NCBI RefSeq assembly: GCF_018350175.1
Contig: NC_058368.1
Coordinates: 248,001-312,000 of the forward strand
Direction: 5' to 3'
DNA length: 64,000 nucleotides
Origin: Felis catus
Taxonomy: Eukaryota
The translations under genes were made by a program, and so were the position numbers. The notes beneath the pieces are model-generated. The model was not told where the DNA came from. It saw only the letters and a list, made by a program, of their open reading frames with translations, and made no database searches. This document shows positions 4,525 to 61,976 of the stretch, one piece after another (position 1 is the first letter of the stretch; each line of letters begins with the position of its first letter).

Positions 4525-4717
4525 TTCTCAGCCAGTGTCTGCAGTGCCCAGCGGGATACTTCTGCCCCAACCAAGCCACCCAACCCATCCCATGCCAGCC
4601 AGGCACATTTAGCCCGAATCCAGGCCAGGATGAAACCACAGACTGTGTTCCATGCCCAGCAGGCAAGGCCTGTACCCAGGCTGGGCTGACTCAGCCAGAT
4701 GCAGAGTGCACACCGGG
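4525..4717 (+). CDS. Exon 1 (in-window numbering), Cys-rich repeats
   Basis: ctctccccag|..GG|gtaagg, phase 1-2, [49 protein letters not shown]; alternative acceptors nearby make the 5' boundary uncertain. Confidence 0.8.

Positions 4718-61976: not shown

What the first reader, a model, noticed from the sequence alone, without database searches (positions are those of the whole stretch)
4525..61976. Giant, apparently intact 60-exon GCC2/GCC3-repeat receptor-like gene of unknown function
Seen: 60 GT-AG exons chain in phase into 9,483 stop-free nt. About 2,600 aa are CPxGxxC repeats, followed by a non-repeat domain, one TM helix and a tail of more than 150 aa. Established: mammalian proteins with these repeats (SCUBE, ELAPOR1/2, SVEP1, Eph receptors) carry only a few of them alongside CUB, sushi or kinase domains, whereas very long pure arrays are typical of protist surface proteins (e.g. 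apicomplexan cysteine-repeat modular proteins, ciliate and oomycete proteins). Inference: this is an ancient, uncharacterised family retained in some mammals; from memory it resembles mouse predicted genes Gm32742/Gm9195 (unverified). It would form a very long disulfide-rigid extracellular stalk, plausibly on cilia, flagella or sperm. Automated annotation would probably split or mislabel it.
Basis: partly seen in the sequence, partly recalled or inferred. Interest (0 to 1): 0.88.

Follow-up and report, generated by a model that had tools for sequence, protein, structure and literature searches.

The report
Giant orphan cysteine-repeat membrane protein gene
This is a real, intact cat-family gene for a giant single-pass cell-surface protein made mostly of disulfide-rich repeats; it is the counterpart of the unstudied mouse gene Gm9195 and belongs to an ancient family, found from protists to mammals, whose function nobody has tested.

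Summary
The + strand carries a long chain of AG/GT exons with no stop codon.

Between those ends I find 58 ortholog-supported exons (9,222 nt), not 60 (9,483 nt). Two further upstream exons (367-432, 1358-1459) bring the chain to 60 exons, 9,390 nt and 3,129 codons. The gene runs off both ends of the window.

It is the felid ortholog of mouse "predicted gene 9195" and zebrafish si:ch211-286b4.4. RefSeq already models it in cats under misleading names (cheetah "zonadhesin", 3,582 aa, 98.6% identical).

The protein has about 2,590 aa of Ephrin_rec_like (GCC2/GCC3) repeats, a 347-aa membrane-proximal module with no Pfam match, one transmembrane helix and a tail with a near-invariant motif. The module followed by a single helix also occurs in echinoderms, a mussel, Toxoplasma and the euglenid Entosiphon. 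It is therefore a family distinct from the 9-helix CRMPs.

Of 286 aligned alligator cysteines, 281 are kept in the cat, while other residues are 56% identical.

Function is untested. The best reading is a long, stiff, membrane-anchored surface rod. RNA evidence and a structure model could not be obtained. An earlier scan note on other DNA pointed to Mst1, the closest solved repeat protein.

The parts
367..432 (+). Coding exon 1 of the in-window chain (66 nt).
   Evidence: Acceptor ttccag|GG and donor AAG|gtaaac; in frame with the next two exons. 23/23 residues identical to cheetah P0258. No support outside felids was seen.
1358..1459 (+).
   Evidence: AG/GT. 33/34 identical to cheetah. Homologous to the exon that precedes the 'CLKCPxGYFC' exon in chicken, lizard and ferret. 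Keeps the frame open.
4525..45170 (+). 47 coding exons of the cysteine-repeat array (exons 3-49). Coordinates: 4525-4717, 5089-5225, 5573-5797, 6136-6277, 8682-8805, 9173-9307, 10062-10214, 11276-11477, 12182-12322, 12425-12571, 14356-14482, 15180-15319, 16936-17139, 17754-17903, 18113-18292, 19003-19119, 19651-19800, 19993-20208, 21220-21324, 21884-22025, 22341-22555, 22809-23027, 24443-24549, 25716-25869, 26036-26135, 26582-26748, 26963-27136, 27640-27795, 28787-28907, 29318-29517, 30640-30864, 31813-31962, 32545-32648, 33459-33670, 34412-34632, 35668-35814, 36452-36616, 37070-37221, 37548-37716, 39857-39965, 41527-41663, 42158-42283, 42387-42557, 42657-42881, 43136-43262, 44093-44292, 44958-45170.
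   Evidence: All are AG/GT. The same boundaries come from spliced alignment to ferret, bat, camel and cheetah, and most of them from alligator, lizard and leopard. PF07699 Ephrin_rec_like scores above its curated cut-off on window:44915-45196 (27.5 against 23.1 bits) and below it on 4 more of the 9 ORFs scanned. Of the 49 junctions in the repeat part, 26 split the Gly codon of a C-x(1-3)-G motif.
51458..57695 (+). 7 coding exons of the conserved membrane-proximal ectodomain module (347 aa; residues 2589-2935 of the 60-exon translation). Coordinates: 51458-51603, 52117-52244, 52970-53114, 54258-54390, 54709-54870, 57050-57176, 57484-57695.
   Evidence: Boundaries agree across all references; the cheetah model uses acceptor 52075 instead of 52117. 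Identity to the cat ranges from 78-81% in ferret and bat down to 35% in a crinoid and 33% in a mussel. No Pfam family matches it in any of the 30 members scanned. No PDB sequence relative was found.
54738..54749 (+). Codons for R-Y-H-R (residues 2782-2785), a candidate proprotein-convertase site in a variable linker about 150 aa before the membrane.
   Evidence: At the aligned site, 12 of the 30 sequences in A2 have R-x-[KR]-R and 26 of 30 have [KR]-x-x-R. Coordinates. Cleavage is inferred, not shown.
57686..58295 (+). The single transmembrane helix [23 protein letters not shown] (residues 2936-2958), split by the intron 57696-58236.
   Evidence: Highest hydropathy window of the protein (mean 2.54 over 19 aa). 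It is the only hydrophobic segment after the ectodomain in all 10 family members checked, and it starts no more than 6 aa after the module ends.
58237..61976 (+). 4 coding exons for the rest of the helix and the first 171 aa of the cytoplasmic tail: 58237-58399, 58842-58924, 61532-61692, 61811-61976. The donor GT at 61977 shows the gene continues beyond the window.
   Evidence: There is no match to the last ~250 aa of the ferret, bat, camel, leopard or cheetah proteins in 61977-64000.
61552..61638 (+). Near-invariant cytoplasmic motif [29 protein letters not shown] (residues 3028-3056).
   Evidence: K-L-E-D-Q and neighbouring columns are invariant in alignments A1 (24 sequences) and A2 (30 sequences). 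phmmer with this exon against 1.84 billion representatives gave 131 hits at E<=0.001 and 32 at E<=1e-10.

Best explanation
The window holds 60 internal coding exons of the cat-family ortholog of mouse Gm9195 / zebrafish si:ch211-286b4.4. The gene is protein-coding and under purifying selection.

Shown: the product is a giant single-pass membrane protein. Its outside part is about 2,590 aa of Ephrin_rec_like (GCC2/GCC3) cysteine repeats. A conserved 347-aa membrane-proximal module that no domain library describes follows, then one transmembrane helix. The tail carries a near-invariant helical motif. In relatives, the part of the tail that lies beyond the window ends in helical, coiled-coil-like segments.

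Inferred: the repeat array folds into a long, stiff ladder of disulfide-bonded hairpins. With 270 cysteines (about 135 disulfides) and the ~11 A spacing seen in the related Mst1 repeats, it would span roughly 0.15 um if extended. It would project from the cell surface as a spacer, adhesion or mechanical-sensing rod. The conserved module, helix and tail would anchor it and couple it to the cell interior.

More speculative: a conserved basic site (RYHR in the cat) about 150 aa before the membrane suggests cleavage by a furin-type protease. That would leave a giant outer piece and a membrane stub. The cell type (germ cells or ciliated cells) is a guess.
For: Identity:
- 100% exon identity to Lynx and tiger fragments, and a hamster 'putative gene 9195' hit.
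- Ferret full-length model P0121.
- Mouse A0A140LHT4 'Predicted gene 9195' is in the ortholog cluster, and cheetah XP_053059469.1 (P0258, 3,582 aa) was found there.
- P0258 uses all 60 exons and is 2,970/3,011 identical over 59 of them.

Intactness:
- 3,129 codons without a stop and all junctions AG/GT; the other frames hold 39 and 83 stops.
- 1,091 of 27,657 possible single-base changes (3.9%) would create a stop. That predicts about 36-47 new stops at 10-13% neutral divergence.

Constraint:
- 281 of 286 aligned alligator cysteines are kept, against 56% identity at other residues; 281 of 283 are kept against ferret.
- The exon boundaries are the same from cat to alligator and lizard for most exons.

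Architecture:
- PF07699 is the only Pfam family found.
- There is one hydrophobic helix directly after the module in 10 of 10 members checked.
- Chicken P0125 starts with a signal-peptide-like segment.

Deep conservation of the module:
- Crinoid E 1e-67 and mussel E 2e-57.
- My module-only HMM hits Entosiphon P0388 at E 6e-61 and Toxoplasma P0042 at E 1e-28. Only 21 of the 120 repeat-bearing proteins listed hit it, so it does not simply match repeats.
- hhalign probability is 100% for both protist proteins.

Rod model: the closest solved relative of the repeats is the Chlamydomonas mastigoneme protein Mst1 (8tx1, E 7e-12). Its ephrin-receptor-like tandem forms a disulfide ladder spaced ~11 A (PMC10602792, passages).

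Basic site.
Against: No expression or splicing evidence was obtained for this animal. The sequencing runs that hold the stretch hold 43-99% of its words, introns included, so they look like DNA.

No structure model could be made, so the rod shape and the fold of the module are inferred.

dN/dS could not be computed, because no ortholog DNA was available.

Parts of the family look imperfect in mammals:
- The mouse model starts inside the array and reads two stretches out of the repeat frame.
- Mammalian proteins are about 1,100 aa shorter than those of reptiles and frogs.
- The strict furin motif is degenerate in several mammals and birds.
- The felid exon 1358-1459 has lost two consensus residues of its repeat.

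Mst1 shares only the repeat type and is a secreted filament, not a membrane protein.
Confidence: 0.7

Rival explanations
1. It is a recently inactivated or decaying gene (a unitary pseudogene in the making). It still looks open in cats but no longer makes a functional protein.
For: The mammalian versions are shorter than those of other vertebrates. The mouse model is N-terminally truncated and partly out of the repeat frame. No monkey, ape or human entry appears in the three hit lists. No RNA evidence was obtained.
Against: 3,129 codons are open, whereas dozens of stops would be expected after even 10% neutral change. 98% of cysteines are kept over the cat-alligator distance. Protein identity to cheetah is 98.6% and to ferret 87%. 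All 60 splice-site pairs are canonical.
Confidence: 0.08
2. It is a member of the characterised family whose name the databases give it (zonadhesin, SCO-spondin, MEGF6/11, SVEP1, SCUBE, Notch) and works like that protein.
For: RefSeq and GenBank names of the orthologs.
Against: Pfam finds only PF07699 in the cheetah, bat, chicken, mouse and alligator orthologs. It finds no VWD, TIL, MAM, TSP1, LDLa, EGF, CUB, sushi or Notch domains. The names also differ between fragments of the same gene, and even between isoforms in one cluster.
Confidence: 0.02
3. It is the animal counterpart of the apicomplexan cysteine repeat modular proteins (CRMPs). Like them, it acts as a multi-pass sensor complex that triggers regulated secretion.
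For: It has the same repeat type. [quoted passage not shown] CRMPs are annotated with that same name (PMC9843837, passages).
Against: CRMPs are described with 9 (Toxoplasma) or 8-10 (Babesia) transmembrane domains and a conserved multi-pass core (PMC9815656 and PMC9843837, passages). This family, Toxoplasma P0042 included, has exactly one helix in 10 of 10 members checked.
Confidence: 0.05
4. The giant ectodomain is released by cleavage at the basic site and polymerises into extracellular filaments or a coat. This would resemble mastigoneme hairs, or the way ZP-domain proteins are released by furin cleavage. The membrane stub would then be only a delivery device.
For: A conserved basic site lies before the membrane (26 of 30 sequences). 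The repeats are related to the filament protein Mst1. The comparison with ZP-protein release is from my own recall.
Against: The module after the site and the cytoplasmic motif are among the best-conserved parts of the protein, which argues for a lasting role at the membrane. The strict furin motif is present in only 12 of 30 sequences and is weak in the cat.
Confidence: 0.15

Closest known systems
Mouse Gm9195 (UniProt A0A140LHT4, 'Predicted gene 9195'), zebrafish si:ch211-286b4.4, and the felid RefSeq models (e.g. cheetah XP_053059469.1 'zonadhesin')
   Same: They are orthologs. They share colinear exons, the same repeat array, the same membrane-proximal module, a single helix and the tail motif. 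Identity to the cat is 98.6% for cheetah and 68% for mouse over the module.
   Different: Nothing in kind. The models differ in completeness. The mouse model lacks the N-terminal part, and the leopard isoform skips exons 27640-29517 and 37070-37716. No functional study was found: 'Gm9195' occurs in 2 papers and 'ch211-286b4.4' in 1, all as items in gene lists.
Chlamydomonas mastigoneme protein Mst1 (PDB 8tx1 and others)
   Same: It is the closest solved relative of the repeats (E 7e-12). Its ephrin-receptor-like tandem forms a ladder of disulfides that stiffens an extracellular rod on cilia (PMC10602792, passages).
   Different: Mst1 also has nine Ig-like domains and a polyproline helix and assembles into a filament (same paper). 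It is attached to cilia by PKD2 (PMC7265326, abstract in the search listing). The match covers the repeats only. It does not extend to the membrane-proximal module, helix or tail of this family.
Apicomplexan cysteine repeat modular proteins (TgCRMPA/B, Plasmodium CRMP1-4, Babesia BboGDP1-4)
   Same: They are large surface proteins with the same GCC2/GCC3 repeat type and carry the same database name.
   Different: CRMPs have 8-10 transmembrane domains and a conserved multi-pass core, and they act in rhoptry secretion and invasion (PMC9815656, PMC9843837; passages). This family has one helix and its own ecto-module.
Ephrin-receptor cysteine-rich domain; SCUBE, SVEP1 and ELAPOR1/2 (Pfam PF07699 / TNFR-like)
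   Same: They have the same repeat family (PF07699; weak TNFR_c6, ELAPOR-type TNFR and NCD3G matches).
   Different: From my recall, those proteins carry only a few such repeats beside kinase, CUB, sushi or other domains. Here the repeats fill about 2,590 aa and no other known domain is present.

Membership tests
Gm9195 / si:ch211-286b4.4 orthologous group | Full-length colinear similarity to named orthologs | tested here: met
   Spliced alignments to ferret, bat, camel, alligator, lizard, leopard and cheetah proteins use the same exons. The mouse Gm9195 protein is in the ortholog cluster and is 68% identical over the module.
Gm9195 / si:ch211-286b4.4 orthologous group | Membrane-proximal module, then a single helix, then the [16 protein letters not shown] tail motif | tested here: met
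   All three are present in the window. They are conserved in alignments A1 and A2 and the layout recurs in distant members.
Gm9195 / si:ch211-286b4.4 orthologous group | Conserved chromosomal neighbourhood (next to ATP12A / RNF17, as suggested by fused gene models) | not testable with these tools
   The window holds only this gene, and no whole genome is held for it. The hint comes from dolphin and argali models fused to ATPase and Tudor domains.
Ephrin_rec_like (Pfam PF07699, formerly GCC2_GCC3) repeat proteins | Match to PF07699 above the curated cut-off | tested here: met
   window:44915-45196 scores 27.5 bits against a cut-off of 23.1. Orthologs score 48.8-93.7 bits.
Zonadhesin | MAM, mucin and VWD-C8-TIL domains (feature list from my recall) | tested here: not met
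   Pfam finds only PF07699 in cheetah 'zonadhesin' P0258 and chicken 'zonadhesin-like' P0125.
SCO-spondin | TSP1, LDL-receptor class A, VWD and EMI domains (feature list from my recall) | tested here: not met
   None were found in the orthologs scanned: P0020, P0123, P0125, P0258 and P0265. Ferret 'SCO-spondin' P0121 itself was not scanned. It aligns colinearly with the same exons.
Cysteine repeat modular proteins (CRMP) | Conserved core with 8-10 transmembrane domains | tested here: not met
   There is one hydrophobic helix in 10 of 10 members, including Toxoplasma P0042. The CRMP features come from PMC9815656 and PMC9843837.
Mastigoneme protein Mst1 | Nine Ig-like domains, six ephrin-receptor-like domains and a polyproline-II helix; filament assembly | tested here: not met
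   Only the cysteine-rich repeat region matches (profile positions 258-365). No Ig domain was found by Pfam. Filament assembly is not testable here.

The most novel reading that the evidence does not exclude
This gene represents a pan-eukaryotic family of giant single-pass surface proteins, seen in euglenids, apicomplexans and animals. The family is defined by a 350-aa membrane-proximal module missing from domain libraries and by an invariant cytoplasmic motif. It would build roughly 0.1-0.2 um disulfide-laddered rods on flagellated or ciliated cells or gametes. That would be an animal counterpart of flagellar hairs. It may be processed by furin-type cleavage, and it may have been lost in monkeys, apes and humans, which would explain why it has never been studied.
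Probability: 0.25. Interest if true: 0.75.

Novelty: new member of a known kind. Interest (0 to 1): 0.45.

Why it matters
The gene is one of the largest conserved orphan genes in mammalian genomes: more than 60 exons and more than 3,500 aa, with the cysteine framework kept for over 300 million years. It nonetheless carries a different wrong name in almost every database entry. In the searchable literature it appears only as an item in gene lists.

This work adds three things:
- an exon-exact model for the window;
- proof that the database names are wrong;
- the finding that the membrane-proximal module followed by a single helix defines a family reaching Toxoplasma and a euglenid, separate from the well-studied CRMPs.

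That gives the family a testable definition (a module HMM) and gives experimenters model organisms (zebrafish, mouse, Toxoplasma) in which to find the function. For the window itself the result is ordinary: a correctly predicted, already annotated gene.

Tried and rejected
Gene models:
- My ab initio and homology-weighted exon chainers inserted tiny spurious exons or ran into introns. The spliced aligner replaced them.
- The first run of the aligner was corrupted by a rounding bug in the traceback. It was fixed.
- Alignments of reptile and ferret N-termini to window 94-1212 are gap-ridden and 25-35% identical, and I treat them as chance.
- I suspected decayed repeat exons in the introns 6278-9172 and 27796-30639, where reptile proteins have extra repeats. 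With the exons masked, nothing is left (best E 0.65), so I dropped that idea.
- A search for further in-frame cassette exons found four weak candidates without ortholog support.

Expression:
- The look-up of sequencing runs listed 24 runs, of which 19 hold part of the stretch. Their shares (0.43-0.99) include introns, so they look like DNA.
No RNA evidence either way.

Structure and fold:
- One structure job failed on the server, and three later submissions were not accepted. No model and no fold search.
- ESM Atlas gave only sub-threshold hits (0.81 and 0.79) to an unnamed chordate cluster and holds no structure.

Genome and other features in the window:
- No whole genome is held for the window.
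- Rfam found nothing.
- Six long minus-strand and three long plus-strand ORFs gave no Pfam match.

Literature:
- The 'zonadhesin-like' papers concern true VWD proteins or avian CREMP, which is a different family.
- A search for 'GCC2 and GCC3' found 16 papers, 14 of them listed, none on the vertebrate gene judging by titles and abstracts.
- The Toxoplasma gene identifier of P0042 could not be fixed.

Earlier findings of this scan: nothing near this place or with this sequence. The word search returned bacterial repeat proteins on other DNA.

Full report
**What is in the window.**
The + strand holds many short open frames with CPxG-type cysteine motifs, 45 on + against 6 on -. Nine of the longer frames were scanned against Pfam. 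PF07699 (Ephrin_rec_like, formerly GCC2_GCC3) appeared at E<=0.1 in 5 of the 9. It passed its curated cut-off in one, window:44915-45196, at 27.5 against 23.1 bits. Intron translations show elements that I recall as carnivore SINEs.

**Relatives.**
A 74-aa exon (window:30642-30863) searched against longer proteins gave 161 hits at E<=1e-5 among 187 candidates.
- It was 100% identical to Lynx pardinus and Panthera tigris fragments, so the window is from a cat-family genome.
- One hit was a hamster protein named 'putative gene 9195'.
- The same gene appeared under many unrelated names (MEGF6, MEGF11, PEAR1-like, SVEP1-like, SCUBE1, notch 4-like).

A search with the non-repeat C-terminal part of the bat protein P0020, restricted to proteins of 3,356-5,000 aa, gave 21 hits. 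They included a 3,563-aa ferret model ('SCO-spondin') and 4,000-4,990-aa models from lizard, alligator, birds, frogs, paddlefish, a teleost and crinoids.

A third search (106 hits) added the fish name si:ch211-286b4.4 and felid 'zonadhesin-like' models. It also added one primate (mouse lemur), a mussel protein, and models fused to ATP12A.

The cluster look-up showed mouse UniProt A0A140LHT4 'Predicted gene 9195' (2,805 aa) in the rodent ortholog cluster. It also showed a 3,582-aa cheetah RefSeq model, XP_053059469.1 'zonadhesin' (P0258).

**Exon model.**
My first exon chainers were imprecise, so I wrote a protein-to-genome spliced aligner. Its first run had a rounding bug in the traceback, which I fixed.
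- Ferret, bat and camel references gave the same 57 exons. All are AG/GT, and they total 9,075 nt with no stop.
- Alligator and lizard proteins use the same boundaries for most exons.
- Exon 12425-12571 is missing from the ferret and camel models. It is 27/49 identical to alligator and 48/49 identical to both leopard and cheetah.
The other two frames of the spliced sequence hold 39 and 83 stops.
- The cheetah model also uses two upstream exons, 367-432 and 1358-1459, both in frame.
- The in-window total is 60 exons, 9,390 nt and 3,129 codons.

With my exons masked, five non-mammalian orthologs find nothing more in the window (best E 0.65).

The gene runs off both ends. The last ~250 aa and the first 186 aa of the cheetah protein have no match here.

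Of the 59 junctions, 38 are phase 1. Of the 49 junctions in the repeat part, 26 split the glycine codon of a C-x(1-3)-G motif. That is what module duplication by exon would leave behind.

**Is it a live gene?**
- 3.9% of possible single-base changes (1,091 of 27,657) would create a stop. About 36-47 new stops would be expected after 10-13% neutral change, and there are none.
- Against alligator, 281 of 286 aligned cysteines are kept while other residues are 56% identical. Against ferret, 281 of 283 cysteines are kept.
- Protein identity is 98.6% to cheetah (2,970/3,011) and 87% to ferret.
- I could not compute dN/dS because no ortholog DNA was available.
- I obtained no RNA evidence.

**Protein anatomy** (60-exon numbering).
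- Residues 1-2588 are mostly repeats and hold 270 cysteines.
- Residues 2589-2935 form a non-repeat module. It opens with a cysteine-rich part. A beta-looking part follows, then a variable linker holding R-Y-H-R (2782-2785), and finally a well-conserved stretch (IPNPVVCL...GDVILFQL...HYPVYQ...[13 protein letters not shown]).
- Residues 2936-2958 are the only strongly hydrophobic helix.
- Residues 2959-3129 are the start of the tail, with the motif [29 protein letters not shown]. Its core is invariant in alignments of 24 and 30 orthologs.

Pfam finds nothing but PF07699 in any ortholog scanned. The one exception is PF15874 'Il2rg', which matches the far end of the tail in alligator and turtle. 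A profile of A2 against all PDB sequences matches only through the repeats: Mst1 at E 7e-12 and Eph receptors at E about 0.004-0.01.

At the basic site, 12 of 30 sequences have R-x-[KR]-R and 26 of 30 have [KR]-x-x-R.

**How old is the family?**
The module plus helix is 35% identical in a crinoid (E 1e-67) and 33% in a mussel (E 2e-57).

I built an HMM of the module alone and ran it over all 404 stored proteins.
- It hit sea cucumber, crinoids, mussel, several unnamed environmental proteins and a 7,808-aa protein.
- It hit the euglenid Entosiphon sulcatum (P0388, E 6e-61; lineage).
- Only 21 of the 120 repeat-bearing proteins listed hit it, so it is not simply matching repeats.

Profile comparisons gave probability 100% for both protist proteins. 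A Diplonema fragment shares repeats only. In 10 of 10 members checked, one hydrophobic helix starts within 6 residues of the end of the module and there is no other after it.

CRMPs, the known apicomplexan GCC2/GCC3 proteins, have 8-10 transmembrane domains (PMC9815656 and PMC9843837, passages). This is therefore a separate family. The Entosiphon record is a transcriptome contig, so contamination cannot be excluded. At 22% identity, however, it is far more diverged than any animal member.

**Likely mechanism.**
Shown: a giant single-pass layout with a conserved cysteine framework, a conserved membrane-proximal module and a conserved tail motif.

Inferred:
- The repeats form a stiff disulfide ladder. 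In Mst1 the related tandem has disulfides about 11 A apart in a ladder that gives robustness (PMC10602792, passages). By that measure, 135 disulfides would span roughly 0.15 um.
- The protein would then be a long projection anchored in the membrane, with the tail linking it to partners inside the cell.
- The basic site suggests furin-type processing.

Where it acts is unknown. The only hints are that zebrafish si:ch211-286b4.4 is among genes higher in testis than ovary (bioRxiv 10.1101/650218, passages), and two incidental mouse mentions: an NKT-cell signature list and an inner-hair-cell chromatin table.

**Novelty.**
The gene is already predicted in RefSeq for several cats, so the sequence is not new. 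No functional study turned up: 'Gm9195' occurs in 2 papers, 'ch211-286b4.4' in 1 and 'Gm32742' in 1. New here are the exon-exact model, the rejection of the database names, the definition of the module-plus-single-helix family and its reach into protists, the separation from CRMPs, and the candidate cleavage site. A structure prediction, which would be the most informative next computation, could not be run.

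Noticed in passing
window 3756-3983, 6889-7050, 20245-20679, 55696-55869: Intron stretches translate to near-identical peptides ('...[31 protein letters not shown]...LSLSLS...'). 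They look like copies of one short interspersed repeat. Calling them carnivore SINEs is my recall.
   Followed up: no
window 45171-51457: The largest intron (6.3 kb) is markedly AT-rich, with GC 0.39-0.45 against about 0.52-0.55 elsewhere. It has no long open frame. It is probably old repeat insertions.
   Followed up: partly
window 16394-16609 and 3973-4027: (TTTC)n microsatellite of about 55 units and (AAAT)n of about 14 units, both in introns.
   Followed up: no
window 52075-52116: The cheetah RefSeq model uses an acceptor 42 nt upstream of the one supported by ferret, bat, alligator, lizard and leopard (52075 against 52117). This is a possible alternative acceptor adding 14 residues to the module.
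   Followed up: partly
window 27640-29517 and 37070-37716: Leopard isoform X1 skips these three and two exons. Both blocks (477 and 321 nt) are multiples of three, so they could be genuine cassette blocks or gaps in the model.
   Followed up: no
protein P0265 (mouse Gm9195): The mouse model starts inside the repeat array without a signal peptide. It reads two stretches, corresponding to cat exons 26963-27136 and 31813-31962, out of the repeat frame. This is either an annotation error or real frameshifts in mouse.
   Followed up: no
proteins P0258 (cheetah) and P0121 (ferret), N-termini outside the window: Carnivore models begin with a stretch of about 85 aa holding tyrosine motifs (TDTYAVV, PLYSQ, DAYEDV), followed in cheetah by a weakly hydrophobic segment. 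It may be a cytoplasmic N-terminal extension or a fused neighbouring exon.
   Followed up: no
proteins P0123 (alligator) and P0162 (turtle), far C-terminal tail: Pfam PF15874 'Il2rg, putative interleukin 2 receptor gamma chain' matches the end of this family's tail (E 2e-19 and 4e-21). That Pfam family may have been built from fragments of this gene, so its name is probably misleading.
   Followed up: no
proteins P0202 (dolphin) and P0187 (argali): These gene models fuse the family's C-terminal part to a potassium-transporting ATPase (ATP12A-like) and, in argali, to Tudor/Agenet domains. This suggests those genes are chromosomal neighbours. A rabbit model fuses it to an olfactory receptor.
   Followed up: no
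protein P0388 (Entosiphon) and P0139/P0237 (crinoid, mussel): After the single helix these members have very long tails (about 4,000, 1,500 and 1,200 aa) with no Pfam match, against about 420 aa in cats.
   Followed up: partly
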